Source: Candidatus Nomurabacteria bacterium RIFCSPLOWO2_01_FULL_41_18 (GTDB taxonomy: Bacteria; Patescibacteriota; Minisyncoccia; Phycocordibacterales; UBA9973). Taken from it: 64,000 nt of DNA. This document shows positions 1 through 57,281 of this stretch, one piece after another; positions within the stretch are counted from its first letter, which is position 1, and every line of letters starts with the position of its first letter. The notes below the pieces were generated by a model. That model worked only from the letters and a program-made list of their open reading frames with translations, was not told where the DNA came from and searched no databases. Location: the NCBI GenBank assembly GCA_001785865.1, contig MFUZ01000006.1, positions 242,315 through 306,314 of the forward strand. The letters run 5' to 3'. The position numbers and the translations under genes are program-made.

Positions 1-673
1 TGAAATAATCGGCGAGACACTCGATGACGCAGTGGGCGAGGCGTTCGACAAAGTAGCTCGGATGCTCGATCTCCCCTATCCCGGCGGTCCACAGATCTCA
101 AAATTGGCAGAAGAACTTAGGGCAAAAGAAGAACAATATTTTCGGGGACTCCGCAGGACGGCCGGTCCTAGGACTGAGCAGATTTTCCTGCAGGAAAATC
201 GCGACCCCGAAAAAATTAGTTCTTCTTTTGCCCTACCTCGTCCTATGCTGTACAGTAAAAATTTTGATTTTTCTTTTTCTGGATTAAAAACTGCTGTTCT
301 ATATTTGATTAGAGATTTAGGCGGTATCGATAAACTTGACCAAATTACAAAAACAAAGATCGCCTTAGAGTTCGAAAATTCCGCTATTGAGTGCTTAATT
401 CACAAGACTAAAAAAGCAGTAGAAAAATACGGGGCAAAAACGCTGATAGTCGCTGGTGGTGTGGCTTGCAATATACATCTGCAAAGAGAGATGTCCGCCC
501 TAGGCGGATCCGCCTCGGGCGGAAAGAAAATCAAGATTTTGTTCCCTTCAAAAGGACTTGCTGGCGATAATTCTCTAATGATCGGCATTGCCGGATACTT
601 AAATTATATAAAAAATAAGAAAAAAGTCCCAAAATTAAATAGTATAAAAGCTACTGGCAATTTAAGGCTTTAA
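1..673 (+). CDS. tsaD: tRNA N6-adenosine threonylcarbamoyltransferase TsaD (Kae1/Gcp family), 5'-truncated by window edge
   Basis: Frame continues from base 1 (EIIGETLDDAVGEAFDKVARMLDLPYPGGPQISKLA...FALPRPMLYSKNFDFSFSGLKTAV...IVAGGVACN), matching the TsaD C-terminal half; contains an extra GC-rich segment relative to orthologs. Confidence 0.8.
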   Translation, partial: EIIGETLDDAVGEAFDKVARMLDLPYPGGPQISKLAEELRAKEEQYFRGLRRTAGPRTEQIFLQENRDPEKISSSFALPRPMLYSKNFDFSFSGLKTAVLYLIRDLGGIDKLDQITKTKIALEFENSAIECLIHKTKKAVEKYGAKTLIVAGGVACNIHLQREMSALGGSASGGKKIKILFPSKGLAGDNSLMIGIAGYLNYIKNKKKVPKLNSIKATGNLRL

Positions 674-8961: not shown

Positions 8962-10104
8962 ATGGAAAAATTGATTAGCGGCCGAAACTACATAATGGAG
9001 AGAAAATACAAATGGATCATCAAGCCGATTTTGTTCAAATTTGATCCCGAAAACGTGCATGATAATATGGGCGTCGTCGGTCGTTGGCTCGGCAAACACT
9101 TCCTGACCCGTAAATTAGCGAGTTTATTTTGGAATTATTCAAATCCCGCACTGGAACAGAACATTCTCGGTATAAACTTCAAGAACCCGACAGGACTTTC
9201 GGCTGGTTTCGATAAGAATGCGGAATTGACCGAAATCATCTCTTCCATCAGTTTTGGCTTTATGGAAGTGGGCTCTATTACTGGTGAGGCCTGCGTAGGT
9301 AACCCCAAACCCCGGCTTTGGCGCTTGAAGAAATCGAGATCGCTCGCCGTAAATTACGGACTCATGAACGACGGCGCTGAAGCGATAGCCGAAAGATTGG
9401 GCAAGAAGCTCGAGGTGAAAAAATTCGATATCCCCGTCGGCATCAGTATCGCCAAAACAAATTGCAAAGACACAGTAGATACTGAAAAAGCCATCTTCGA
9501 TTATTTCAAGGCTTATCGAGCATTCATCGACATAGGCGACTATTTCACAATAAATATCAGCTGTCCGAACGCCTTTGGCGGACAGCCCTTCACCGACAGC
9601 ACCAAGCTCTACTTGCTGCTTTCGAAAATCATGTCCGTCCCGAAGACAAAACCTATTTTTATAAAATTATCCCCCGACTTAAAACAAAAAGAAATCAATG
9701 AAATACTAGATATTGCCGCAAAATGGAATGTGGACGGATTTATTTGCACAAATTTGACTAAAAATCGTAATAAAAAACAGAATAAAAACATTATAGATGA
9801 AAGCGTGCCGGAGTTAGGCGGACTGTCTGGGAAAGCAGTTGAAGATCTGTCGCTCGAACTGATCAGATATATTTATAAAAAAACAGGTGGAAAAGCAAGT
9901 AAATTTGTAATTATTGGCTGTGGTGGAGTCTTTAGCGCCGAAGATGCATACAAAAAAATAAAAGCCGGCGCTTCCCTCATCCAACTCATAACGGGAATGA
10001 TTTTCGAAGGCCCGCAACTAATTAGTGAAATAAATTTAGGATTAGTAAAACTCCTAAAAGCTGATGGTTATAAAAATATTTCTGAAGCAATTGGAAAAGA
10101 ATAG
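8962..10104 (+). CDS. pyrD: dihydroorotate dehydrogenase (quinone-type, class 2)
   Basis: N-terminal membrane-associated extension + NPTGLSAGFDKN and C-terminal GCGGVFSAEDAYKKIKAGASLIQL motifs. Confidence 0.75.
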   Translation: MEKLISGRNYIMERKYKWIIKPILFKFDPENVHDNMGVVGRWLGKHFLTRKLASLFWNYSNPALEQNILGINFKNPTGLSAGFDKNAELTEIISSISFGFMEVGSITGEACVGNPKPRLWRLKKSRSLAVNYGLMNDGAEAIAERLGKKLEVKKFDIPVGISIAKTNCKDTVDTEKAIFDYFKAYRAFIDIGDYFTINISCPNAFGGQPFTDSTKLYLLLSKIMSVPKTKPIFIKLSPDLKQKEINEILDIAAKWNVDGFICTNLTKNRNKKQNKNIIDESVPELGGLSGKAVEDLSLELIRYIYKKTGGKASKFVIIGCGGVFSAEDAYKKIKAGASLIQLITGMIFEGPQLISEINLGLVKLLKADGYKNISEAIGKE

Positions 10105-10106
10105 AA

Positions 10107-10138
10107 TTACGTAATGTATTACGTAATACATTACGTAA
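10107..10138. repeat. 32-bp perfect palindrome TTACGTAATGTATTACGTAATACATTACGTAA (copy 1) between convergent stops; probable bidirectional terminator
   Basis: Perfect self-complementarity; contains TACGTAA three times at 12-nt spacing; second near-identical copy at 56849-56882. Confidence 0.7.
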
Positions 10139-10146
10139 CTAAAATC

Positions 10147-11418
10147 TTATTTCTTCTTCAACAAAATCATCAAATCAGAAACGTTGGCCCCTGTTGCGCC
10201 GGTCATGATAATGTCGCCGGACTTTTGAAACACCGGGTAAGAATCGAAACGTTCTAGGTGATCATCGATATCTATACCTTGATTTTTTATTTTTTCAATA
10301 GTTTTTTTATCCGCTATGGCTCCAGCTGCATCGCTGTTGTCCATGCCGTCGGAAGCGAGAGAGACAAAGACCGAATCTTCGCCGATCATTCCTTTTTTGA
10401 TCACTCGGAGCGCCATATGGAGGTTTCTTCCGCCCTTTCCCCCTTTCCTTGCCACTTTTATTTCAGGCTCCCCAGCAGCCAAGACGGTAGTATCTGGGGC
10501 TTCCGCTTTAAAAATTTTCCCCACGGCAGAATCTATCTCATCATACATATCTGTGGATAAAATATTTGCTTTAAGGCCAAGTTCTTCCGACTTTTCGGCC
10601 ATCGCGCTTATGGCGGTCTTGTTTGAAACCAGGACAAAATTGCGTACTTTTTCAAAATATTTATCTTCTTTCGGAGTTTCTATCAGGTCGAATTTTCCCA
10701 AATTATATTTACGAATGATTTCTGCAGCATCCGCTACGGTACTCTCATCCTTGTAGGTGGGGCCTGAAGCGACATCAGCAAAATGATCCCCGGGTATATC
10801 GGAAAAAATAAGTCCGACGACATTGGCCGGATAAGCGACTTTGGCCAATCCCCCGCCTTTCAATATGGAAAGATGCTTCCGGACAGTATTTATTTCCTCG
10901 ATAGTGCCTCCACATTTCAAAAATTCATCATAGAGAGCCATATTTTGCTCGCACTCCTCTTTGGAATAGCAGAGCAAGGCAGAGCCACCGCCCGAGACAA
11001 GTACGATGATGAGATCATCTTCGCTTCCATTTTTCAATATTTCATATATTTTTTCACCGGCCTCTACATTCATCATACTCGGCCTCGGGTGGCTCCCGGC
11101 AAATACGTCGATATAGTCGAGGCTGATCTTGGCAAGTCCAACCACGGCGCCAGTTTCTATCTTCGGACCTAAAATTTTCTCCAACGCGAGAGCGGCACGG
11201 GCAGAAGCCTTGCCAAAACCGACAACTTTGATTTTTTTAAATTTCGACAGATCGAAACTCTCCCCCATTATGGTAAGTAGATCGCCCTCGGGCTTTACAA
11301 ATCGAGAAATTACTTCTTCGGTATCGATCGCCGATAGTCCCGCCTCAATGATAGCAAGAGCCAATTTACGATTTTCCGTTGTGGCGAGCTCGCCCTGATT
11401 TTTGATCCATCTTTTCAT
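10147..11418 (-). CDS. glycerate kinase, MOFRL family (glycerate 2-kinase-like)
   Basis: 423 aa; VVGFGKASARAA, VSGGGSALL, GGKGGRN motifs typical of MOFRL/DUF4147 glycerate kinases. Confidence 0.6.
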   Translation of the reverse strand: MKRWIKNQGELATTENRKLALAIIEAGLSAIDTEEVISRFVKPEGDLLTIMGESFDLSKFKKIKVVGFGKASARAALALEKILGPKIETGAVVGLAKISLDYIDVFAGSHPRPSMMNVEAGEKIYEILKNGSEDDLIIVLVSGGGSALLCYSKEECEQNMALYDEFLKCGGTIEEINTVRKHLSILKGGGLAKVAYPANVVGLIFSDIPGDHFADVASGPTYKDESTVADAAEIIRKYNLGKFDLIETPKEDKYFEKVRNFVLVSNKTAISAMAEKSEELGLKANILSTDMYDEIDSAVGKIFKAEAPDTTVLAAGEPEIKVARKGGKGGRNLHMALRVIKKGMIGEDSVFVSLASDGMDNSDAAGAIADKKTIEKIKNQGIDIDDHLERFDSYPVFQKSGDIIMTGATGANVSDLMILLKKK

Positions 11419-13077: not shown

Positions 13078-13208
13078 AAACTAGAAACTCGTTGCAGGCG
13101 TACTTTTTAGAAAGCCTTGCGCAGGCGGACGCGCCGAGCAGTTCGCTCCGCAAGCTTGCGGAGATAGATTGCTTTATAAAAAGTATGCCAAGAAAGAGTT
13201 TCTAGTTT
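13078..13208. repeat. GC-rich ~130-bp nested inverted-repeat element (terminal 13-bp IR AAACTAGAAACTC/GAGTTTCTAGTTT)
   Basis: Outer perfect 13-bp IR, second IR GTACTTTTTAGAAAGC/GCTTTATAAAAAGTA(T), central 18-bp perfect palindrome CTCCGCAAGCTTGCGGAG; overlaps lepA stop. Confidence 0.5.
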
Positions 13209-15136
13209 TCCCCGCTACGCATCATCTTCAAAAATACGTCTTGGGGAATGTTTACTTTGCCTCTTTCTTTCATTTTCTTTTTGCCTTTCTTTTGTTTCTC
13301 ACGAAGTTTCATTTTGCGAGTTATATCACCTCCATACATATGTGCAGTAACATCTTTTTTCATACCAGAAAGCGTGCGTGATGAGATGATGCGTCCAAAT
13401 GCTTTACCTTGGATTTTCAAAGTAAACATTTGCCTAGGCAACAAGCTCTCTAATTTTACAACAGACTCTTCGGCTTCTATTTCTACCCTTTTCTTTGAGA
13501 CAACTTTAGAAAAAGCTGGTACAGGTTCATCGGCAACCAACACATCAAGTCGGGTGACATCTGCTTCACGATTTTCGGCTATATTGTAAGATATTGATCC
13601 ATAGCCAGATGAAGTGCTTTTTAGTTCATCAAAGAAATTGCGCATCAATTCACGAAGCGGCATTTTTACAGATATAGATGAACGGTTGTCTCCGAAATTC
13701 TCAGTCTCCCCTACTTCTGCTTCATGATCAAACAATATCTGCATAATGTTACCTAGATATTCCACAGGAGTGATTATTTTTGCATTTACCCACGGCTCAA
13801 AAATAGTTTTAATATTACTGTCATCTGGAAAAAAGTACGGCGAATAAATCTTCTGCCTCTTCGGCAGATCGCCGATGAGGCGATTTCCAACATTAGTATT
13901 ATATTCTACTTCATATACGATAGAGGGCGTAGTGATGACAAGATTCAAATTAAATTCTCGCTTCAGTCTTTCAGTAATGATTTCTAAATGAAGCATTCCA
14001 AGAAAACCACAGCGAAAACCTCGCCCCAGAGATCCTGAAGATTCTTCTTCAAAAGAAAAAGACGAATCTGAAAGTTTTAGTTTTCCTAAAGAAAGCTTTA
14101 GTAAGGCAAAATCGTCCGCATCCTCGGGAAAAACACTCGCCCAAACCACCGGCATCGGCTGCATATATCCCGGAAGTGCAGGCAGTGGATTCGCAGATTT
14201 TGTAATCGTATCTCCAACAGAAGCAATACCAGGCTTTTTTATGCCTGTGACAATATAGCCGGTATCTCCAGCTGAGAGACTGTCTCGTGGAGTTTCTTCT
14301 GGTGAAAAAGTCCCGACCTCAAGCGCTGTAAATTTTTCCCCTGAGACAGCAAAAAGCAAGCTGTCACCCCGCCTCACCTTACCATCAAATAACCTCACAA
14401 AAACTATTACCCCTTTATGATTTGAATATTTAAAATCAAACACTAAAGCGCTCAAAACATTTTCACTTTTATTTTCATTTTTATAATTTTCAATTGGCGC
14501 CGGAACACGTTTTATAACTTCCTTTAAAAGATTTTCCACCCCTTCTCCTGTGCGACCTGAAACTAAAAGCACTTCATTTGGATCGCAATTTAAAAGTTTT
14601 ACCACTTCTTCTTTTACTTCCGACACCCTAGCCAAAGGTGAATCAATTTTAGAAAGGACAGGAATTATTACAGAGGCCCCTTCACCTCTCCCATTGCCAG
14701 AGCGGGGTAGGCGAGCCATAGCGAGCGTGGTAAGCGTCTGCGCCTGCACCCCCTGTGTGGAGTCAACCAGTAAAATAGACCCTTCCACGGCCTTCAGAGC
14801 CCTAGAGACTTCATAAGAAAAATCCACGTGTCCGGGAGTGTCAATGAGATTCAGTATGTAAACCTCATCCCCCGCCTTCTCCTGGGGGGAGAAGGAGCCC
14901 CCTCGCCTTCCAGGAGAGGGGTTAGGGGTGAGGTGGGTGGTGTATTCCATGCGAACGGGTTGCATTTTGATTGTAATACCTCGTTCACGCTCAAGCTCCA
15001 TAGAGTCTAGTACTTGATCACGCATTTTTCGCGCTTCTACTGTATGCGTGATCTCGAGCATTCTGTCTGCCAAAGTACTTTTGCCATGGTCTATGTGGGC
15101 GATTATTGAAAAGTTTCTGATGTGTTTTAGGTCCAT
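13202..15136 (-). CDS. lepA: elongation factor 4 (LepA)
   Basis: NFSIIAHIDHGKSTLADR, DTPGHVDF, full five-domain EF4 layout; carries ~20-aa GC-rich in-frame insert (LTPNPSPGRRGGSFSPQEKAG). Confidence 0.9.
   Translation of the reverse strand: MDLKHIRNFSIIAHIDHGKSTLADRMLEITHTVEARKMRDQVLDSMELERERGITIKMQPVRMEYTTHLTPNPSPGRRGGSFSPQEKAGDEVYILNLIDTPGHVDFSYEVSRALKAVEGSILLVDSTQGVQAQTLTTLAMARLPRSGNGRGEGASVIIPVLSKIDSPLARVSEVKEEVVKLLNCDPNEVLLVSGRTGEGVENLLKEVIKRVPAPIENYKNENKSENVLSALVFDFKYSNHKGVIVFVRLFDGKVRRGDSLLFAVSGEKFTALEVGTFSPEETPRDSLSAGDTGYIVTGIKKPGIASVGDTITKSANPLPALPGYMQPMPVVWASVFPEDADDFALLKLSLGKLKLSDSSFSFEEESSGSLGRGFRCGFLGMLHLEIITERLKREFNLNLVITTPSIVYEVEYNTNVGNRLIGDLPKRQKIYSPYFFPDDSNIKTIFEPWVNAKIITPVEYLGNIMQILFDHEAEVGETENFGDNRSSISVKMPLRELMRNFFDELKSTSSGYGSISYNIAENREADVTRLDVLVADEPVPAFSKVVSKKRVEIEAEESVVKLESLLPRQMFTLKIQGKAFGRIISSRTLSGMKKDVTAHMYGGDITRKMKLREKQKKGKKKMKERGKVNIPQDVFLKMMRSGEN
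14868..14940 (-). repeat. in-frame GC-rich palindromic element inside lepA (two hairpin units: CCTTCTCC-TGGGG-GGAGAAGG and CCCCTCGCCTTCCAGGAGAGGGGTTAGGGGTGAGG)
   Basis: Sequence family shared with copies in leuS (28866-28908) and giant protein gene (21118-21160); absent from E. coli LepA at this position. Confidence 0.7.
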
Positions 15137-15265
15137 CCCGTTTAGAAGCAGATCGCGATCAACTCGCGTGTCTGATATGTTATGTTATTAATTTCTATAA
15201 TATTTGATTTCATGTTTTGTTTGTTTTTTAAATTGCGGTCGCGGCTTCTAACGGGATCCATAAAA

Positions 15266-20983: not shown

Positions 20984-25261
<4,278 letters not shown>

Positions 25262-25263
25262 TT

Positions 25264-25545
25264 TTAATTAATCTTCATTTCAAGACGCTCAACGCGAATT
25301 CTTAAATCTTCAACAGTTCTTTCTTGCTTGATATCAGTGTGCACCAGATTGGCCATCGTCTGTCTGTGCTCTCTCGCTTCTTCTGTAAATGTTTGCATTT
25401 GTTTTAAGATCAACTCAAAGGCTTTGTCATGCCGTGTGAATCTTTCATCAATTTTAGTAAAAGATTTTGCAATAGAAGCCATCGCTTTTTCAAAAGCTGA
25501 CATTGTCACATATTTTTCGGTTATTTTTTTTACTTCTTTTCTCAT
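25264..25545 (-). CDS. hypothetical coiled-coil protein (93 aa), upstream of giant fibre gene
   Basis: ORF tightly packed in same orientation; no recognisable family. Confidence 0.4.
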   Translation of the reverse strand: MRKEVKKITEKYVTMSAFEKAMASIAKSFTKIDERFTRHDKAFELILKQMQTFTEEAREHRQTMANLVHTDIKQERTVEDLRIRVERLEMKIN

Positions 25546-28017: not shown

Positions 28018-30558
28018 CTAAATCACAATGTTGACAAGCCTGTTTTTCACATAAATCATCTTTTTGACGTCTTTTCCTGCAATATGCCTCACAACAGTTT
28101 CATTCTCCAGAGCTTTTTTCTTTATGCTTTCTTCTGTTTCATCTGCCTGCACAAAAATTTCAGCTCTAACTTTTCCATTTATTTGTATTACAATTTTAAT
28201 TTCTTCATCTTTTATTAAATTCTCATCCCATTTTGGCCAATTGGAGAGATTGATCGAATCCTTCTCTCCTAGAAGGCTCCATAATTCTTCGGTCATATGC
28301 GGTGCGAATGGTGAGAGAACTTGCAGAAATTTTTTATAATCTTCCACTGAAACATTTTCAGCTTTTTCCATCTCTGTCGCCAGAATCATCATGGAAGAGA
28401 TTGCGGTATTGAAATTCATACCCTCTATATCTTCAGAAACTTTTTTTATGGTTTTGTGCAATAACCGAACCAGTGGAGAATTTTTTGACATTCCGGAAGA
28501 ATTATTAAATTTCAAAACTTTCTCCCCTATCCTCCAAACTTTTTCAATAAATCTTCTAGCTCCGATAATGCTTTCCGTAGACCAAGCCACGGACTGATCA
28601 AACGGCCCCATAAACATTTCATAAACTCGAAGTGTATCTGCGCCATAGGTTTTCACAATGTCATCCGGGTTAATTACATTTCCAAGAGACTTGGACATTT
28701 TGACTCCCCCTTCACCCAAGATCATCCCATGCGAAGTACGCTTCATGTATGGCTCGTTTGTAGGCACAAGTTTCAAATCAAAAAGAAATTTATGCCAAAA
28801 ACGAGAATACAAAAGATGCAGAGTCGTGTGTTCATTTCCGCCGTTGTACCAGTCTACTCCACCCGTATTTCCCCCTCTCCTTTCAGGAGAGGGCTGGGGT
28901 GAGGTTAACCAGTATTTTAAATTTTTCTTGCTTGCAAATTCTTTATTATTTTTCGCATCAGCATATCGCAAATAATACCAAGAACTTCCAGCCCAGTTTG
29001 GCATGGTGTCTGTTTCTCTTTTTGCTTTACCAAGGCACTTTGGACATTTCACATTTACCCATTTTGAAATGTTTGCGAGTGGTGATTCGCCACTATCCGT
29101 CGGCTGATAATTCTTAACTTTTGGTAATTCCACCGGCAAATCTTTTTCTGGAACTGGAACTACCCCACAATCTTGGCAATGTATAACTGGTATGGGCTCA
29201 CCCCAGTATCGCTGTCTAGAAAAAATCCAGTCACGAAGTTTGAAGGTCGTCTTTCTAGAAGCGGCACTCTCTGAACTTAACCAATCAATAATTTTAGGTC
29301 GAGCTTCTGCTGAAGTTAAACCATCAAATTGTTTAGAATTAAAAAGCACACCTTCACCTTCGTAACATTCTTCCATGTTTTTTATTTTCTCAAAAAGTGA
29401 TTCGTCTTTGGATTTGATCGAAACCTTGAGAGGAATATTATATTTTTTCGCCATATCAAAATCCCTTTTATCATGAGCATCAGCAAATACAGCGCCAGTC
29501 CCATAATGAACTAACACAAAATCTGATACCCAAACTGGTATTTCTTCTTTGGTTGCTGGATTAATGACCCTGACACCCTTTAATTCAATTCCCGTTTTAT
29601 TACTTTCTGCTGTTCTCTCAACTTCTGGTCTATTTTTAACTTCTTTAATATATTTTTCAACTTCATTCCAGTTTAAAATACTATTTTTGTATTCTTGAAT
29701 AAATGAATGTTCGGGAGCTAAAACAATAAAAGTACAAGAAAAAATTGTATCGACACGAGTAGTAAAAACTTTTATAGCTAGGTCTTGTCTAGCTGAAACT
29801 TTAAACTCTATTTCTGCGCCTTCACTTTTCCCTATCCAATTCCTCTGCCCAAGCTTAATTTGTGGAAGATAATTTACATCATCTAAATCTTTATAAAGCC
29901 TATCGGCGTATTTTGTAATCGCTAGCATCCATTGCTCTTTCTCCCTTTTTTCCACTGCAGTCCCACAACGTTCACAAACGCCAGCTTGCCCTGAGCCTGT
30001 CGAACGGGTTACAACTTCTTCATTCGCAAGTCCAATTTTATCCTTCGGGCACCAGTTTATCGTCATCTTCGCTTTGTAAGCTAAACCTTTTTTCAAAAAT
30101 TGTAAAAATATCCACTGTGTCCATTTGTAATATTTTGGATCAGTGGTATTTATTTCTCGCGACCAATCAAAAGAAATACCGAGTGACTTTATCTGTCTGC
30201 GAAAAGTATCACTATTTTTCTTGGTAACTATCCGTGGATCTTTGCCTGTTTTTATTGCAAAGTTTTCTGTCGGCAATCCAAATGCATCCCAACCTATAGG
30301 ATACAAAACATTAAAACCTTCTAGCCTTCTTTTTCTAGAAATAATATCCATCCCTATGTAAGGCCTTGGATGCCCTACATGAAGACCGTCTCCAGAAGGA
30401 TATGGAAACTCTATCAAGCCATAGAATTTCGGCTTGATCGCAGACTTACTCAGACTGGACGCGGACTGACGCGGAAAATCTTTTGCATAATATATTCCAT
30501 TTTTGTCCCAGATAGTCTGCCATTTACTTTCTATCTTTAAGTGGTTATATTCCTTCAT
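28018..30558 (-). CDS. leuS: leucine--tRNA ligase
   Basis: FPYPSGDGLHVGHPRPY HIGH region, KMSKSLGN, editing domain; carries 16-aa GC-rich insert TSPQPSPERRGGNTGG. Confidence 0.9.
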   Translation of the reverse strand: MKEYNHLKIESKWQTIWDKNGIYYAKDFPRQSASSLSKSAIKPKFYGLIEFPYPSGDGLHVGHPRPYIGMDIISRKRRLEGFNVLYPIGWDAFGLPTENFAIKTGKDPRIVTKKNSDTFRRQIKSLGISFDWSREINTTDPKYYKWTQWIFLQFLKKGLAYKAKMTINWCPKDKIGLANEEVVTRSTGSGQAGVCERCGTAVEKREKEQWMLAITKYADRLYKDLDDVNYLPQIKLGQRNWIGKSEGAEIEFKVSARQDLAIKVFTTRVDTIFSCTFIVLAPEHSFIQEYKNSILNWNEVEKYIKEVKNRPEVERTAESNKTGIELKGVRVINPATKEEIPVWVSDFVLVHYGTGAVFADAHDKRDFDMAKKYNIPLKVSIKSKDESLFEKIKNMEECYEGEGVLFNSKQFDGLTSAEARPKIIDWLSSESAASRKTTFKLRDWIFSRQRYWGEPIPVIHCQDCGVVPVPEKDLPVELPKVKNYQPTDSGESPLANISKWVNVKCPKCLGKAKRETDTMPNWAGSSWYYLRYADAKNNKEFASKKNLKYWLTSPQPSPERRGGNTGGVDWYNGGNEHTTLHLLYSRFWHKFLFDLKLVPTNEPYMKRTSHGMILGEGGVKMSKSLGNVINPDDIVKTYGADTLRVYEMFMGPFDQSVAWSTESIIGARRFIEKVWRIGEKVLKFNNSSGMSKNSPLVRLLHKTIKKVSEDIEGMNFNTAISSMMILATEMEKAENVSVEDYKKFLQVLSPFAPHMTEELWSLLGEKDSINLSNWPKWDENLIKDEEIKIVIQINGKVRAEIFVQADETEESIKKKALENETVVRHIAGKDVKKMIYVKNRLVNIVI
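28866..28908 (-). repeat. in-frame GC-rich palindromic element copy (CCCCCTCTCCTTTCAGGAGAGGGCTGGGGTGAGG) in leuS
   Basis: 9-bp perfect IR CCTCTCCT/AGGAGAGG plus GGGGTGAGG tail; absent from E. coli LeuRS between YWLP and VD(I/W)Y. Confidence 0.7.
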
Positions 30559-31794: not shown

Positions 31795-32772
31795 TTATAC
31801 GCCCCAAACCGCCGTATTGGCAAGTGGGATGATGCGATTGTTGGACTTTTCTAATACACAAAGCTCACCAGCTTCTATTTGGCCTTCAAAGTTTTTCATA
31901 GTTTCCTCTAGTGCATACCCAAGAGAAAGTGAAGAAGAATCTATCGCATACGAGGTTAAAATAACAAAAAGTGGCTTGTCACTCAAAACTTTTTGCACTG
32001 CTGATAAAAGCTTTGGCAACATTTCTTCTATTTTCCAAACTTCTCCTTTTGGTCCCCTACCAAACTTTGGTGGATCCATTATTATGGCATCATATTTGTT
32101 TCCCCTCTTTGCTTCTCTCTCTAGGAATTTTATTGCATCATCTTCTATGATTCGCATGCCTGTTAGTCCTAAATGACTATTGAGTTTTTCATTTTCTTTT
32201 GCCCAAGCGAGGCTTTGCTTTGAAGCATCGAGGTGCGTCACTACTGCGCCAGCGCGAAGCGCAAACAAGCTCGCCACTCCCGTATAGCCGAACAAGTTCA
32301 AAAATCTAGGTCTGGAAGCAGAGGGAGAATTCTGGCGGCGGAAGGTTCCGTCCGAAGGATGGAGGAATGTCGCAGAATTCTCCTTCTGTAAAAGACCACC
32401 AACACTAGCGCTGATCTTTTCTTCAATAAAATCCCAGTGGCAAGCCTGCTCTGGGAAAAATCCCAAGTGTCGGAAAGGAGTAGGTGAAGCCAGAAATTTA
32501 ATGCCTTTATATTGCATCTCCCATCTATCTTGAATCTTTTCTTTCATCTTCCACCCAGCTTTTGCTCCCACTTTTGAACTCCAAAATTTACCGTCAGCTT
32601 TATTCCATTCTTTTTCCGACAAAGTTTTTGCCCAAACAGCATCTTCATAAGGACGCACAAAAACATATTTACCAAATCGCTCCAACTTTTCCCCCTCACC
32701 CGTATCTAGGAGCTCATAATCACCGAAGTCTGTGGAATCTTTCAAATAAAAAATTTTAATTTGGTTTTGCAT
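31795..32772 (-). CDS. class I SAM-dependent rRNA methyltransferase (RlmI/RlmK-like)
   Basis: LFGYTGVASL..HLDASK SAM-binding motif and DPPKFGRGPKGEVWKIEE catalytic region; contains 60-bp GC-rich in-frame palindromic insert. Confidence 0.65.
   Translation of the reverse strand: MQNQIKIFYLKDSTDFGDYELLDTGEGEKLERFGKYVFVRPYEDAVWAKTLSEKEWNKADGKFWSSKVGAKAGWKMKEKIQDRWEMQYKGIKFLASPTPFRHLGFFPEQACHWDFIEEKISASVGGLLQKENSATFLHPSDGTFRRQNSPSASRPRFLNLFGYTGVASLFALRAGAVVTHLDASKQSLAWAKENEKLNSHLGLTGMRIIEDDAIKFLEREAKRGNKYDAIIMDPPKFGRGPKGEVWKIEEMLPKLLSAVQKVLSDKPLFVILTSYAIDSSSLSLGYALEETMKNFEGQIEAGELCVLEKSNNRIIPLANTAVWGV
32324..32383 (-). repeat. 60-bp (20-codon) GC-rich in-frame insert bounded by perfect 11-bp inverted repeat GGAGAATTCTG/CAGAATTCTCC
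   Basis: Read directly; length multiple of 3; lies in linker of methyltransferase. Confidence 0.55.
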
Positions 32773-32774
32773 AA

Positions 32775-33260
32775 TTATTTCTTACCTTGAATATTATTCT
32801 TAATCCATTCATTTTTCTTTTTTCTATACTCATCCTCTGGTAAACCGTCTAAGGAATTTTTAAAATCTTCATATCTTTGACTTAAACCTGCATCTGCTCG
32901 CAATTTTTCTAAAGTCCTGCGATGAATTCCTATCATCTTATGACCTACAGGAAGTATTTGTAAATCAACTCTTATTCCATTTCTTTTTGTATTTAAGTGG
33001 CTAATTTCTTTGACTACAGGACCTTGTATGTAACTTTTTTCAACAAGCAACTTACTGTCAGCATTAACGTCATTGCTCACAACCATCACGTCAATTTCTG
33101 ATTTTCCAGAAATCGGCACAGCCATAGAACCAATCAATTCTGAAGAAGAATCAGGAAGTATTTTTGATAATTCAATAATAATTTCTTTCTGTAATTCAGA
33201 AATTTCTAGAGATGGTTTTATTATCTTTATTTTTTCGTTCATGCTTGTATTATAACACAC
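32775..33260 (-). CDS. GrpB family protein (nucleotidyltransferase-fold, UPF0157)
   Basis: 161 aa; LIGSMAVPISGKSEIDVMV and C-terminal pattern typical of GrpB. Confidence 0.55.
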   Translation of the reverse strand: MCYNTSMNEKIKIIKPSLEISELQKEIIIELSKILPDSSSELIGSMAVPISGKSEIDVMVVSNDVNADSKLLVEKSYIQGPVVKEISHLNTKRNGIRVDLQILPVGHKMIGIHRRTLEKLRADAGLSQRYEDFKNSLDGLPEDEYRKKKNEWIKNNIQGKK

Positions 33261-33271
33261 TCTTTATTAGT

Positions 33272-33312
33272 GAACCACCGATGTTGATAAATTCTGCATA
33301 TGCAGAATTTAT
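33272..33312. repeat. 40-bp perfect palindrome GATGTTGATAAATTCTGCATATGCAGAATTTATCAACATC just downstream of PaaX-like gene
   Basis: Perfect IR; half-site recurs upstream of same gene at 33941-33963. Confidence 0.7.
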
Positions 33313-33322
33313 CAACATCTAG

Positions 33323-33925
33323 TTAAGGCAAGTGAAAATGTTTCCCTAATTTTTCATCTCTCAAAATGTTTTCTACGACCAAAATCTCAACACACTTCTC
33401 TACTCCAAAGAAATCAGCAATAAATATTATTTCGTCTTCGCATGGATAAGGATAAATCCAAGCGGATTTTTGAAATTGAAAAAAATTTAGTTCTTTCAAA
33501 TGAAAACGTAATGCTTCCCGTCCTTTTGTAAATCTCATAGGAATATCAAACATAACTAATCTCCATTTACCGTCCCATTTCTTAGGCTTGTTAATTTTCA
33601 TCAACTCAATATCAAAAACTTTTAATTTAGTATCACCTTTTTTTGTAATTTTTACTATTGTTTTCCCGTTCTTGTCAGAGACATATTCTATAAGATTTTG
33701 TTTACGAAGATGATTTATTGAATTTCTAATTTGTTCCTTACTGAGATGTTTAGAACTTTTAAATTGTCTGAAAACTTGTACTGCATTGCCCATAGCAGCC
33801 GCAATCAAAACAAGAGCTGGAATTGACGCAACAGCGATCACACACAAAACCACTTGAGCAATCTGGGCTTTTCTTGTCTTAGAATCCAAAAATTCTCTAA
33901 TTCTTGAGGAATATTTATTTTTCAT
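33323..33925 (-). CDS. PaaX-family-like transcriptional regulator (TM anchor + winged-helix + PaaX_C/Cas2-like alpha/beta domain), tentative
   Basis: wHTH-like LRKQNLIEYVSDKNGKTIVKITKKGDTKL; C-terminal WRLVMFDIP...ALRFHLKELNFFQFQKSAWIY; ATG at 33925 preferred over upstream TTG at 33961. Confidence 0.45.
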   Translation of the reverse strand: MKNKYSSRIREFLDSKTRKAQIAQVVLCVIAVASIPALVLIAAAMGNAVQVFRQFKSSKHLSKEQIRNSINHLRKQNLIEYVSDKNGKTIVKITKKGDTKLKVFDIELMKINKPKKWDGKWRLVMFDIPMRFTKGREALRFHLKELNFFQFQKSAWIYPYPCEDEIIFIADFFGVEKCVEILVVENILRDEKLGKHFHLP

Positions 33926-33940
33926 ATTGTTTATAATTAT

Positions 33941-33963
33941 AGCATATGCAGAATTTATCAACA
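33941..33963. promoter_or_regulatory. upstream copy of 22-bp motif GCATATGCAGAATTTATCAACA (candidate operator) in promoter region of PaaX-like gene
   Basis: Direct match to half of the downstream 40-bp palindrome. Confidence 0.4.
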
Positions 33964-55962: not shown

Positions 55963-55999
55963 ATTAGATGCTGGGTCATAGCTTTTAGCTAATAGAATT

Positions 56000-56857
56000 A
56001 TGGATAAATTAAGCTTTGTATTTTGGGGAACACCCGATGTAGCCTCTGAGACACTTGAAACCTTAAAGCAAGCTAGATTTTTACCGTCTTTGATTGTTAC
56101 ATCTCCAGATGCAAAAAAAGGGAGAGGCATGCATATGGAAGCATCCCCCGTAGCCATTTTTGCAGAACAAAATAAAATACCTTGTCTTAAACCCGAAAAA
56201 CTTGACGAAGAATTTTGTAATAAACTAAAGCCTAGCTGTCTAAAGCCTAATTGCCTATTTATTGTGGTTGCTTACGGCAAAATAATACCTGAAAATATTA
56301 TAAATATGCCGAAATTGGGCTCTATCAATATACATTATTCACTTCTCCCAAAATATCGTGGAGCTTCTCCTGTAGAATCTGCGATCTTAAACGGAGATAC
56401 GGAAACAGGAGTGACTATACAAAAAATGGTATATAAATTGGATGCAGGAAACATATTAGCGCAAGAAAAGGTGCAAATATCGCCTGATGAAACAGCTCCA
56501 GAATTAAGAAAAAAATTAATTAAAATAGGTGGAGAACTTTTGGTAAAAACTTTAGGAACCCCCTCCTTCCTCCCCCTTATCAAGGGGGAGGTGCCGAAAG
56601 TGGTAGGGATCGAGCAAGATGAATCTCAAGCCACATTTTGCAAAAAAATTAAAAAAGAAGACGGACTGATAGATTTAAATGCCGATGCAGTTACAAACTA
56701 TAATAAATGGAGAGCCTATGTCTTTTGGCCAAGAACTTTCTTTTTTGTAAATGGAAAGAGAATAATAGTTACTGACGCAAAGCTTATAGATGGAAAGTTT
56801 GTGATTAAAAAAATCATTCCAGAAAACGGAAAAGAAATGAATTACAAAGTTACGTAA
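56000..56857 (+). CDS. fmt: methionyl-tRNA formyltransferase
   Basis: N-terminal formyltransferase (NIHYSLLPKYRGASPVESAILNGD) and C-terminal domain; small GC hairpin insert at 56569-56591. Confidence 0.85.
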   Translation: MDKLSFVFWGTPDVASETLETLKQARFLPSLIVTSPDAKKGRGMHMEASPVAIFAEQNKIPCLKPEKLDEEFCNKLKPSCLKPNCLFIVVAYGKIIPENIINMPKLGSINIHYSLLPKYRGASPVESAILNGDTETGVTIQKMVYKLDAGNILAQEKVQISPDETAPELRKKLIKIGGELLVKTLGTPSFLPLIKGEVPKVVGIEQDESQATFCKKIKKEDGLIDLNADAVTNYNKWRAYVFWPRTFFFVNGKRIIVTDAKLIDGKFVIKKIIPENGKEMNYKVT

Positions 56858-56882
56858 TGTATTACGTAATACATTACGTAAC
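56849..56882. repeat. 34-bp perfect palindrome GTTACGTAATGTATTACGTAATACATTACGTAAC (copy 2) overlapping fmt and hpf stop codons
   Basis: Identical 32-bp core to copy at 10107-10138; same convergent-gene context. Confidence 0.7.
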
Positions 56883-57281
56883 TTAATACTTCGAAGTAAA
56901 AGGATTTCGTTTTGAGAGACCCTTCATCATCTTTTTGACACTGCGGGCTCCGCGATACAAGAGCGTCTGACTGCGATCTTTGTTTTTATTTATTTCGTAG
57001 TAGAGAGTGTCTTTAATGGCATCTATCGCCTGATATAAATCTTCCTTATCAGAGCTAGAATAAAATTCTTTGCCGTCTATCTTGATCAGACAATCTGCAT
57101 GGAAAACCTCGCCTGATTTATGATGATTTGTGGACTTGCCTACTTCGAAATTTACCATCACCTTTCCTCCCCCTTCTTTTATCCTGGTAAGAAGCTTTTC
57201 CAAGTTGGTAACCCTCTTCAAAACATAGTCTTTTATAGCTTCAGTTAATTCAATATTTTTACCCTGTAAATTGATTTGCAT
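56883..57281 (-). CDS. hpf: ribosome hibernation promoting factor (HPF/RaiA/YfiA family)
   Basis: MQINLQGKNIELTEAIKDYV... typical RaiA fold signature. Confidence 0.8.
   Translation of the reverse strand: MQINLQGKNIELTEAIKDYVLKRVTNLEKLLTRIKEGGGKVMVNFEVGKSTNHHKSGEVFHADCLIKIDGKEFYSSSDKEDLYQAIDAIKDTLYYEINKNKDRSQTLLYRGARSVKKMMKGLSKRNPFTSKY

What the first reader, a model, noticed from the sequence alone, without database searches (positions are those of the whole stretch)
32324..32383. 60-bp GC-rich insert bounded by 11-bp perfect IR inside RlmI-like methyltransferase gene
GGAGAATTCTG ... CAGAATTCTCC flanks 38 bp of GC-rich DNA. The total is exactly 20 codons. It sits in the linker (LLQKENSATFLHPSDGTFRRQNSPSASRP) between the N-terminal domain and the SAM-binding motif. 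This is another in-frame palindromic element of a different sequence family, which reinforces that this genome tolerates and accumulates translated palindromic insertions.
Basis: partly seen in the sequence, partly recalled or inferred. Interest (0 to 1): 0.55.

Follow-up and report, generated by a model that had tools for sequence, protein, structure and literature searches.

The report
Translated 48-bp mobile hairpin insert
The palindrome is one copy of a tiny hairpin-forming repeat (a 48-bp unit) found in frame inside many housekeeping genes of ultra-small bacteria, where it would add a 16-residue loop, much like the Rickettsia palindromic elements.

Summary
The 11-bp inverted repeat is real (32324-32334 / 32373-32383) and extends to 16-nt arms (32319-32388). 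It lies in a PF10672 SAM-methyltransferase gene (31795-32772, minus strand), between the N-terminal domain and the Rossmann fold.

Many orthologues, including all distant ones, lack the segment. Others carry the same DNA element, and some carry it in the opposite orientation.

A core-pattern scan of metagenomes found 44 loci, and only 7 are this gene. The others lie in LeuRS, PheS, PheT, MnmA, CCA-adding enzyme, LigA, UvrC, RecA, FAD oxidases and a few intergenic sites.

- All copies share a ~56-nt apical core.
- The unit measures exactly 48 bp (16 codons) from AATT to AATT.
- Basal stems are locus-specific, with a median of 17 nt beyond AATT.
- About 38 of 40 intragenic copies use one of two stop-free frames.

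At one MnmA site, filled alleles equal empty alleles plus exactly 48 bp at a single AATTCT.

Best reading: a MITE-like, RPE-like hairpin element that is translated as a linker loop. The mobilising enzyme is unknown and translation is not demonstrated. No description turned up in a limited full-text search.

The parts
31795..32772 (-). Host gene: 325-aa class I SAM-dependent methyltransferase (PF10672, 2IGT-like). Identical to NCBI 'hypothetical protein A2738_00755', Candidatus Nomurabacteria bacterium RIFCSPHIGHO2_01_FULL_42_1x.
   Evidence: ORF; Pfam PF10672 E = 1.5e-10; NCBIfam hits all below cut-off; 100% match to P0001; PDB 2IGT E = 1.3e-65.
32323..32412 (-). Codons 121-150: protein segment with no counterpart in 2IGT or in insert-free orthologues. 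Predicted to be a disordered linker between helix 107-134 and the first Rossmann strand 156-160.
   Evidence: 2IGT aligns to query residues 11-120 and 151-309, with one chain residue between them. AF2 gives pLDDT < 50 and coil for 130-151. Orthologue alignment A1.
32319..32388 (.). Whole hairpin, 70 nt: arms 32319-32334 and 32373-32388 (16 nt, one mismatch) around 38 nt.
   Evidence: the repeat finder I15; folding; covariance-model hit at 32314-32393, + strand, 78.1 bits, E = 5e-13.
32328..32375 (+). 48-bp (16-codon) repeat unit, counted from the left AATT (32328-32331) to the base before the right AATT (32376-32379). Equivalent to a 44-bp element plus a 4-bp AATT duplication.
   Evidence: The AATT-like tetranucleotides sit at fixed model columns 15-18 and 63-66, 48 bp apart, in 42 of 45 family copies. 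Filled alleles equal empty alleles plus 48 bp at MnmA site 2.
32346..32364 (+). Apical stem-loop of the conserved core (TTCCGTCC GAA GGATGGAG): 8 bp including G.U pairs on the + strand.
   Evidence: RNAalifold consensus on 39 copies. Columns 37:47 (GU 21, AU 11, CG 4, GC 3) and 38:46 (CG 18, GC 9, UA 8) covary.
32319..32327 (.). Locus-specific left basal arm outside the AATT (CAGAGGGAG). Pairs with 32380-32388.
   Evidence: Arms differ between loci but are self-complementary in every copy. They are similar among methyltransferase orthologues carrying the element in the window's orientation.
32380..32388 (.). Locus-specific right basal arm (CTCCTTCTG).
   Evidence: As for the left arm.

Best explanation
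The finding is one copy of a dispersed, non-autonomous hairpin DNA element. It resembles a MITE and, in how it works, a Rickettsia palindromic element.

Anatomy of the family:
- a conserved, GC-rich apical core of about 56 nt. On the window's + strand the consensus reads RAATTCTGCTGGCGGAAGGTTCCGCCCGAAGGGTGGAGTAAAGCCAAAGAATTYT;
- a unit of exactly 48 bp between two AATT tetranucleotides;
- a basal stem whose sequence is specific to each locus.

Proposed mechanism:
1. The unit enters at an AATT (usually RAATTY) site. Either a 44-bp element duplicates AATT, or a 48-bp element inserts next to an existing AATT. (Inferred, from one site.)
2. Because 48 bp is 16 codons, the host reading frame is kept. 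Each orientation has a stop-free frame that reads the AATTC as Asn-Ser. Copies in loops or inter-domain linkers of housekeeping proteins therefore survive, read through as a 16-residue loop. Here that is ...NSATFLHPSDGTFRRQ NS... between the N-terminal domain and the Rossmann fold. (Frame preservation and location are shown. Translation is inferred.)
3. The hairpin stem then grows into the flanks, probably by intrastrand template switching that copies one flank in inverted form. (Inferred.)

Shown here: family membership, dispersal, the 48-bp unit, intragenic in-frame location, both orientations, insert-free orthologues, and one empty/filled site comparison. The enzyme that moves the element is unknown.
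For: 1. Insertion in this gene.
- Orthologues of 291-305 aa lack the segment.
- So do the distant relatives in Lachnospiraceae and Sphingopyxis.
- The minimal linker is HWDFIEEKIKNSGRKIKFLNLFGYT.
- 2IGT has a single residue where the query has residues 121-150.

2. Same DNA element, both orientations.
- L003 and L021 carry it as in the window.
- L001, L090 and L092 carry the reverse complement at the same site, still in frame (ENSDGGRFTPEAGGKPKNS).

3. Dispersed family.
- The pattern CTCCNNCCTNCGGNNNGAACCTTCCGCC hit 44 metagenome loci. About 0.1 hits are my rough chance estimate for 22 fixed bases.
- Only 7 of the 44 lie in the methyltransferase gene.
- Model R1 found further copies, up to 3 in one ORF.

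4. Hosts. LeuRS, PheS, PheT, MnmA (two sites), CCA-adding enzyme, FAD-linked oxidases (several sites), LigA, a class-V aminotransferase, UvrC and the RecA tail, plus a few intergenic copies. Insertions are mostly at Pfam domain boundaries.

5. Reading frames.
- 40 of 45 copies lie in ORFs of 200 aa or more.
- About 38 of these use one of two frames, KNSLALLHPSGGTFRQQNS or KNSxGGRFxPKxGxxPKNS.

6. Unit length. 42 of 45 copies have AATT-like tetranucleotides exactly 48 bp apart.

7. Empty versus filled site, MnmA site 2.
- Empty L105 and L086 have one AAT TCT.
- Filled L102 and L107 are +17 and +14 codons. That equals the 16-codon unit plus flank differences of +1 and -2 codons.
- The flanks have been rewritten into an inverted repeat.

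8. Structure is maintained.
- 18 of 27 pairs show compensatory changes, including in the apical stem.
- Arms extend a median of 17 nt beyond AATT.

9. Related families share the architecture.
- Their AATT-to-AATT units are 54, 57, 60 and 84 bp, all multiples of 3.
- They occupy the same sites in LeuRS and in this methyltransferase.

10. The insert is tolerated. The host ORF is intact, and the AF2 model keeps both domains with the insert as a low-confidence coil.
Against: - No transposase, or longer element with the same ends, was found in 735 kb of related loci.
- The Y1 (RAYT-like) genes nearby have their own, different palindromes.
- The window's 64 kb holds only this one copy, so activity in this genome is not shown.
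- The AATT-duplication rule rests on one site, with two filled and two empty alleles.
- In the methyltransferase the insert is 25-28 residues, not 16. The arms there are net additions or the ancestral linker was longer.
- The locus-specific arms are not explained by any demonstrated mechanism.
- Patchy presence on a rough NJ tree fits repeated gain or repeated loss.
- Many core columns were fixed by my search pattern, so core conservation is overstated.
- No transcript or peptide data show that the insert is translated.
Confidence: 0.72

Rival explanations
1. A selected cis-acting structure rather than selfish DNA. The hairpin is kept at domain boundaries because it acts in the mRNA or the DNA. 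It could pause ribosomes between domains, form an RNase III site that tunes expression of housekeeping genes, or extrude as a cruciform.
For: - Inserts sit mostly at domain boundaries.
- Unrelated hairpins occupy the same sites in different genomes: methyltransferase L009, L010, L011, L004; LeuRS families 1-4.
- Stems are maintained and extended.
Against: - The same core occurs in both orientations at one site. The better-pairing strand is antisense to the host gene in about three quarters of copies.
- Many orthologues do without any insert.
- An identical core in a dozen unrelated genes needs dispersal anyway.
- The G.T over A.C excess in the arms follows the host coding strand, not the element strand.
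- Site recurrence is also expected if only a few loops in essential proteins tolerate 16 extra residues.
Confidence: 0.12
2. A locally generated palindrome. The linker is a hypervariable, indel-prone stretch, and the inverted repeat arose in place by template switching or inverted duplication, with no mobile element involved.
For: - Core-less palindromes exist at the same site: L010 has an 18-bp perfect palindrome and L002 has GCCGAAGCaagGCTTCGGC.
- The arms are locus-specific and, at MnmA site 2, look like overwritten flank.
Against: The central 40-50 nt is nearly identical at dozens of unrelated loci on different contigs. Local generation cannot produce that. It may explain the arms only.
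Confidence: 0.05
3. An intervening sequence that is not translated. The long perfect stem is cut out of the mRNA, for example by RNase III-type cleavage followed by RtcB-type ligation, so the protein lacks the insert.
For: - Stems of 20-30 bp in mRNAs of essential genes would be good double-strand RNase substrates.
- No expression data are available to exclude removal.
Against: - Unit lengths are multiples of 3 in all families.
- About 38 of 40 intragenic copies use the two Asn-Ser frames, although 5 of the 6 frames of the consensus are open by my reading. That points to selection on the encoded peptide.
- No ribozyme or other Rfam family matches; only sub-threshold generic miRNA-hairpin models do.
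- The insert is far too short for an intein.
Confidence: 0.06
4. A chance inverted repeat or an assembly artefact.
For: An 11-bp perfect IR within 60 nt is expected about 1.5 times per 64 kb by chance.
Against: - 16-nt arms, and z = -4.9 for folding.
- The identical protein is recorded on 9 contigs from several sources.
- Homologous copies occur in many independent assemblies.
Confidence: 0.01

Closest known systems
Rickettsia palindromic elements (RPE-1 to RPE-10; Ogata et al. 2000, as summarised in the MITE review PMC10969869)
   Same: Palindromic repeats that sit in frame inside unrelated housekeeping genes and encode a conserved peptide compatible with protein fold and function. No transposase is known. 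They occur in small genomes (for the RPE facts; for this family).
   Different: - RPEs are about 100-150 bp; this unit is 48 bp.
- The lineage is different (Patescibacteria metagenomes).
- Here the conserved part is the hairpin apex and the basal stem is unique to each locus.
- The unit has fixed AATT boundaries, and both orientations recur at the same site.
- Sequence similarity to RPEs was not tested.
Yeast mitochondrial GC clusters, e.g. GC42 (PMC4478555)
   Same: A roughly 42-nt GC-rich hairpin element in an AT-rich genome. It has a short duplicated target (AG), stems under constraint and variable loops, many copies and no transposase. Size class and logic are the nearest match.
   Different: - GC42 copies are mostly intergenic; here about 90% are intragenic and in frame.
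- The target is AATT, not AG.
- The host is bacterial.
- No locus-specific stem extension is mentioned in the GC42 passages read.
Bacterial MITEs (Correia, BOX, RUP, ERIC and intragenic RU elements; PMC10969869, PMC2759123)
   Same: Short, non-autonomous and multi-copy, with terminal inverted repeats and a short duplicated target. They occasionally form in-frame fusions with host ORFs.
   Different: - Ordinary MITEs are mostly intergenic, larger and have conserved terminal repeats.
- A parent insertion sequence with matching ends is usually identifiable; none was found here.
REP / REPIN elements mobilised by RAYT (Y1, HUH) transposases (PMC3733652)
   Same: Short hairpin repeats that act as single-stranded DNA. 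RAYT-like Y1 genes exist in related genomes and are flanked by their own palindromes. Head-to-head doublets of the element occur (L093, L099).
   Different: - REPs are extragenic and 20-40 nt, with a conserved 5' GTAG or CGTC tag, and they flank the RAYT gene.
- This element is intragenic and lacks the tag.
- It is not the palindrome that flanks the Y1 genes.
- No Y1 gene is present in the window.
Quasi-palindrome template-switch mutagenesis (established knowledge from E. coli work; a lead recalled from memory, not tested here)
   Same: It would convert imperfect inverted repeats into perfect ones and could extend a stem by copying one flank in inverted form. That fits the locus-specific, near-perfect arms and the overwritten flank at MnmA site 2.
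   Different: It is a mutational process, not an element family. It explains the arms only, not the dispersed core.

Membership tests
MITE (miniature inverted-repeat transposable element) | Short, and carries no transposase gene | tested here: met
   48-bp unit and 70-100-nt hairpin.
MITE (miniature inverted-repeat transposable element) | Multiple dispersed copies at non-homologous loci | tested here: met
   44 pattern hits, 37 of them outside the methyltransferase gene. 45 distinct copies after the model search, in 11 other host protein families.
MITE (miniature inverted-repeat transposable element) | Terminal inverted repeats | tested here: met
   Conserved RAATTCTKYGGC ... GCCNNNAGAATTY ends pair with each other.
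MITE (miniature inverted-repeat transposable element) | Target-site duplication, shown by empty versus filled sites | tested here: inconclusive
   MnmA site 2: empty alleles have one AATTCT and filled alleles are +48 bp with AATT at both junctions. This is one site only. AATT is palindromic, so a duplication cannot be told apart from insertion next to an existing AATT.
MITE (miniature inverted-repeat transposable element) | A related autonomous element with the same ends | tested here: not met
   All model hits in 735 kb are complete small units, with no half-sites and no longer element. The sample is small, so this is not conclusive.
Rickettsia palindromic elements (RPE) | Sequence homology to an RPE family consensus | not tested
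   No RPE sequences were available in the tools used. Rfam gave no match.
Rickettsia palindromic elements (RPE) | Length of about 100-150 bp, in Rickettsia genomes | tested here: not met
   48-bp unit, in a Candidatus Nomurabacteria genome. RPE facts from PMC10969869.
Rickettsia palindromic elements (RPE) | In-frame insertion in unrelated ORFs with a conserved encoded peptide (the functional hallmark) | tested here: met
   40 of 45 copies are in long ORFs, with two conserved peptide frames.
REP / REPIN-RAYT system | Extragenic location | tested here: not met
   About 90% of copies are intragenic.
REP / REPIN-RAYT system | Conserved GTAG or CGTC tetranucleotide at the 5' end of the hairpin | tested here: not met
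   The ends are RAATTY. The tag criterion is from PMC3733652 (abstract seen).
REP / REPIN-RAYT system | Copies flank a RAYT (Y1) gene | tested here: not met
   The Y1 genes in L001, L021 and L004 are flanked by other palindromes, ACTTGGTAGTCGGAGTACCAAGT and CAGCGGTTGAACCGCTG. There is no Y1 gene in the window.
   PRK15128 scores 46.7 bits against a cut-off of 712, and only the Rossmann domain matches. The protein belongs to PF10672 and is closest to PDB 2IGT.
Intein or self-splicing intron | Splicing domain or ribozyme core | tested here: not met
   The insert is 16-28 residues. Rfam gave no family, only sub-threshold miRNA-hairpin models.
Known structured RNA family (Rfam 15) | Match at the gathering threshold | tested here: not met
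   Best hit is mir-240 at 26.8 bits against a gathering score of 67.5.

The most novel reading that the evidence does not exclude
The 48-bp element is one member of a superfamily of RAATTY-bounded, GC-rich hairpin cassettes (units of 48, 54, 57, 60 and 84 bp, all multiples of 3). These would behave as exchangeable, invertible modules at a small set of permissive loops in essential genes.

They would be moved by an undescribed activity that cuts at AATT in a hairpin or cruciform context. It could be an ApoI/EcoRI-like cohesive-end nuclease plus ligase, or a single-strand HUH-type enzyme. It would not be a transposase that recognises element-specific ends.

This reading would explain:
- why unrelated cores share the same boundaries;
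- why both orientations and different families recur at the same codon;
- why loss appears precise.
Probability: 0.15. Interest if true: 0.85.

Novelty: new variant of a known kind. Interest (0 to 1): 0.62.

Why it matters
If the reading is right, essential translation and repair enzymes of ultra-small Patescibacteria are repeatedly remodelled by a 48-bp selfish hairpin that is read through as protein.

- It gives a second, independent bacterial example of the RPE phenomenon. This one has a much smaller unit and a defined boundary rule, which makes the insertion mechanism easier to test.
- It matters for annotation and for protein alignments and phylogenies. Shared 16-residue 'motifs' in unrelated proteins here reflect DNA parasites, not protein homology.
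- 70-100-bp near-perfect palindromes inside genes can break metagenome assemblies.
- The recurrent use of the same loops maps positions in conserved enzymes that tolerate insertions.
- The locus-specific stem growth is a natural record of palindrome extension in genomes, and its cause is open.

Tried and rejected
- **Rfam scan of 32250-32450 at E up to 10.** Only generic miRNA-hairpin models appeared, far below threshold. It is not a described RNA family.
- **Search for other copies in the window.** The 11-mer with one mismatch, blastn-short and the covariance model all found none.
- **Strand of function.**
  - I first read the excess of G.T over A.C pairs (54 against 11) as evidence that the GGCGG strand acts as a single strand.
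  - Splitting copies by host-gene orientation shows the bias follows the host's antisense strand, 44:21 and 12:8.
  - I withdrew that argument for the arms. Only the apical-stem consensus (G.U at 33:51 and 37:47) still favours that strand, and part of that was fixed by my search pattern.
- **RAYT/Y1 link.** Y1 genes lie near the methyltransferase in L001, L021 and L004. They are flanked by other palindromes and are absent from the window. No link was established.
- **Viral contigs.** The core pattern gave no hit.
- **Peptide-level census.**
  - A 50-aa composite query found no word-sharing candidates.
  - A phmmer run of the 34-aa window peptide against 1.84 billion representatives gave 3 hits. 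The two I inspected are unrelated repeat proteins.
  - All three attempts were uninformative.
- **In-place inversion as the cause of both orientations.** The evidence is mixed.
  - The reversed methyltransferase copies have a different apical subtype (CCCGCC/GGCGTG), which suggests independent insertion.
  - At FAD-oxidase site B, L098 and L094 share a subtype, which suggests flipping.
  - This is left open.
- **Literature.** Seven full-text searches were run, four of them naming Patescibacteria, CPR or Parcubacteria. None returned a description of such elements in those bacteria. The library is incomplete.
Full report
**1. The observation**

The + strand reads GGAGAATTCTG at 32324-32334 and CAGAATTCTCC at 32373-32383. 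These are the only two occurrences of that 11-mer in the window. The repeat extends to 16-nt arms with one mismatch, 32319-32334 / 32373-32388.

The region folds well. It gives -28.6 kcal/mol on the gene's sense strand (z = -4.9) and -45.9 kcal/mol on the + strand.

An 11-bp inverted repeat with a short loop is not rare by chance. About 1.5 are expected per 64 kb, and the window has 9. The case therefore rests on what follows, not on the repeat alone.

**2. The host gene**

The repeat lies in ORF 31795-32772 on the minus strand (325 aa).
- The protein is identical to a hypothetical protein of Candidatus Nomurabacteria bacterium RIFCSPHIGHO2_01_FULL_42_1x.
- It belongs to PF10672.
- It does not reach NCBIfam's RlmI cut-off.
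- Its closest solved relative is 2IGT. That structure aligns to residues 11-120 and 151-309, with one residue where the query has thirty.
- An AlphaFold model keeps both domains and shows residues 130-151 as low-confidence coil.

**3. It is an insertion**

Among 120 close homologues, lengths fall into a class of about 291-305 aa and a class of about 320-342 aa. The alignment places the difference in this linker.

Genome contigs show that the distant relatives lack the segment, and so do most of the other Patescibacteria orthologues retrieved by that scan. The minimal linker is HWDFIEEKIKNSGRKIKFLNLFGYT.

Orthologues with the long linker all have an inverted repeat there, often with different arm sequences:
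- the window has GGAGAATTCTG;
- L003 has CAGAAGAAAAATT;
- L001 has GAGGGGAAAGAAAATTCT.

In L001, L090 and L092 the central DNA is the reverse complement of the window's. It is still in frame and encodes ENSDGGRFTPEAGGKPKNS.

On a rough NJ tree built from ungapped columns, presence is patchy. The window groups with insert-free orthologues.

**4. It is a dispersed repeat**

I scanned metagenome contigs with the core conserved among the methyltransferase copies, CTCCNNCCTNCGGNNNGAACCTTCCGCC. The scan returned 44 loci, and only 7 are this gene.

Every copy is a long hairpin. About 56 nt at the apex are conserved. The basal stem is different at every locus yet self-complementary.

RNAalifold finds 18 of 27 pairs with compensatory changes, including two in the apical stem. 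A covariance model built from 39 copies found extra copies in the same loci:
- three in one FAD-oxidase ORF in L099;
- head-to-head pairs in L093 and L099;
- no second copy in the window.

Rfam has no such family.

**5. Where the copies sit**

Forty of 45 distinct copies lie in ORFs of 200 aa or more. About 38 of those are read in one of two frames:
- KNSLALLHPSGGTFRQQNS on one strand;
- KNSxGGRFxPKxGxxPKNS on the other.

The hosts are housekeeping genes: LeuRS, PheS, PheT, MnmA (two sites), CCA-adding enzyme, FAD-linked oxidases, LigA, a class-V aminotransferase, UvrC and the RecA C-terminal tail. Most insertions fall between Pfam domains.

By my reading, five of the six frames of the consensus are open. 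The strong preference for the two Asn-Ser frames therefore suggests selection on the encoded peptide, and hence translation. That is inference, not proof.

**6. The unit and its boundaries**

In 42 of 45 copies, two AATT-like tetranucleotides (usually within RAATTY) lie exactly 48 bp apart. In the window they are at 32328-32331 and 32376-32379.

MnmA site 2 provides an empty/filled comparison.
- L105 and L086 have a single AAT TCT.
- L102 and L107 are +17 and +14 codons. That equals the 16-codon unit plus flank differences of +1 and -2 codons.
- The flanks keep their length, but their sequence has become an inverted repeat.

This fits two readings. Either a 44-bp element duplicates AATT, or a 48-bp element inserts beside an existing AATT. 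In both, the stem is then extended by copying one flank in inverted form.

Template switching at quasi-palindromes is the known process that would do this. That is established knowledge and was not tested here.

In the methyltransferase the extra segment is 25-28 residues. There the arms are net additions, or the ancestral linker was longer. The origin of the arms is the least secure part of the account.

**7. A wider superfamily and hot spots**

The same site in LeuRS carries different things in different genomes:
- family 1 in either orientation (L116, L125);
- a 54-bp family 2 (L007, L010, L005);
- a family 3 (L015, L016);
- a family 4, SPDAFAQSLG...SQKH (L003, L011);
- nothing at all (L002, L017).

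Families 3 and 4 also occur at the methyltransferase site, in L004/P0040/P0025 and in P0022. Families 2 and 3 are again bounded by AATT-like tetranucleotides, and their unit lengths are 54, 57, 60 and 84 bp, all multiples of three. Family 4 has an AATT at its left end only. Core-less palindromes also occur at the methyltransferase site, in L010, L011 and L002.

Recurrence could reflect target preference. It could also mean that only a few loops in essential proteins tolerate such inserts.

**8. What I could not establish**

- No transposase or parent element was found.
- Y1/RAYT-like genes near the methyltransferase in three related genomes have their own REP-like palindromes, some even inside their own ORFs. 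None lies in the window.
- The apparent single-strand bias in the arms follows the host coding strand and is not an element property.
- No viral contig carries the core.
- Peptide-level censuses failed for technical reasons.

**9. Comparison with known elements**

Functionally this is closest to the Rickettsia palindromic elements, which are in-frame, peptide-encoding palindromes in housekeeping genes (PMC10969869).

In size and logic it is closest to yeast mitochondrial GC clusters such as GC42. That is a 42-nt hairpin with an AG target duplication and no transposase (PMC4478555).

It differs from both in several ways:
- the 48-bp unit;
- the AATT boundaries;
- the locus-specific basal stems;
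- the recurrence of both orientations and of several families at one codon.

It fails the defining tests for REP/RAYT elements. It is not shown to be an RPE by sequence.

Seven full-text searches, four of them naming these bacteria, found no description of such elements in Patescibacteria.

**10. Verdict**

I rate it a new variant of a known kind, with moderate to high interest. The mechanism is open and testable.

Noticed in passing
window 118-235 and 494-523 (+), inside ORF 2-670 (TsaD, PF00814): A 118-nt hairpin lies in frame in TsaD. It has 30-nt arms (TAGGGCAAAAGAAGAACAATATTTTCGGGG / CCCGAAAAAATTAGTTCTTCTTTTGCCCTA) and a GC-rich centre. A second small palindrome, TCCGCCCTAGGCGGATCCGCCTCGGGCGGA, lies in the same ORF.
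   Followed up: partly
window 14858-14944 (LepA ORF 13205-15184, -); 21110-21167 and 21249-21278 (1427-aa ORF 20987-25267, -); 28859-28910 (LeuRS, -); 56554-56608 (Fmt ORF 55982-56854, +): A different family of GC-rich palindromes, of the type CCCCTCGCCTTC..GGAGAGGGGTTAGGGGTGAGG, is also read through in frame. It gives peptides such as SPQPSPGEGEGE and TSPQPSPERRGG.
   Followed up: partly
window 28475-28506 (-), in LeuRS (28021-30558): The sequence AATAATTCTTCCGGAATGTCAAAAAATTCTCC ('NNSSGMSKNS') has two AATTCT 24 bp apart. It sits at the exact LeuRS site that carries 48- or 54-bp hairpin units in other genomes. It looks like an internally deleted remnant of family 2.
   Followed up: partly
window 33280-33319: A perfect 40-bp palindrome with no spacer, GATGTTGATAAATTCTGCAT|ATGCAGAATTTATCAACATC, lies between the PaaX-like gene (33323-33961, -) and the GrpB-like gene (32775-33260, -). 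It contains AATTCTGC, as at the ends of the element core. It could be a core-less hairpin, an operator or a terminator.
   Followed up: no
window 10097-10148 and 56839-56892: Two copies of a REP-like palindrome, TTACGTAATGTATTACGTAATACATTACGTAA.
   Followed up: no
window 13078-13208: An intergenic inverted repeat with 38-nt arms (84% complementary) around a GC-rich 55-nt centre. No frame is open across it.
   Followed up: no
L001 1656-2761; L021 2406-3104; L004 7358-8078: IS200/RAYT-like Y1 genes (HUH motif NPNHFHFLI) are flanked by their own 17-23-nt palindromes, ACTTGGTAGTCGGAGTACCAAGT and CAGCGGTTGAACCGCTG. They are also interrupted in frame by them, giving peptides such as GTSTTKL and GTPTTKL.
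   Followed up: partly
L007 14080-14165, L010 14057-14142, L005 13415-13500, L020 8328-8413, L015 14527-14612 (all LeuRS); L004 10419-10510 (methyltransferase): Other hairpin families share the same architecture: a variable stem, AATT-like boundaries and a GC-rich apex. Their units are 54-84 bp, all multiples of 3, at the same sites as family 1.
   Followed up: partly
L093 9349-9509; L099 5561-5724: Head-to-head doublets of the 48-bp element, with adjacent copies in opposite orientation inside one ORF. This recalls REPIN doublets.
   Followed up: no
L099, L098 and L094, FAD-oxidase site A (GGPLPMD...NYPLV): L099 has the element. L098 and L094 have an unrelated segment of nearly the same length (within one residue) between the same conserved flanks, which in L099 form the arms. 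Either the core decayed or it replaced an equal-length native segment.
   Followed up: partly
L091 versus L124 and L128: The same element copy and right flank are joined to different left flanks, with the break at the element. This could be recombination or mis-assembly at the repeat.
   Followed up: no
methyltransferase alignment A1, N-terminal region and elsewhere: Other variable in-frame inserts occur in orthologues of the same protein: PLGSARDKTG, SFDSAQDK and PLDPARGKPN after SKDW, and also CSTPSVQQ, PARHASQGDAGG and PARPPESGAGGS. Their DNA was not examined.
   Followed up: no
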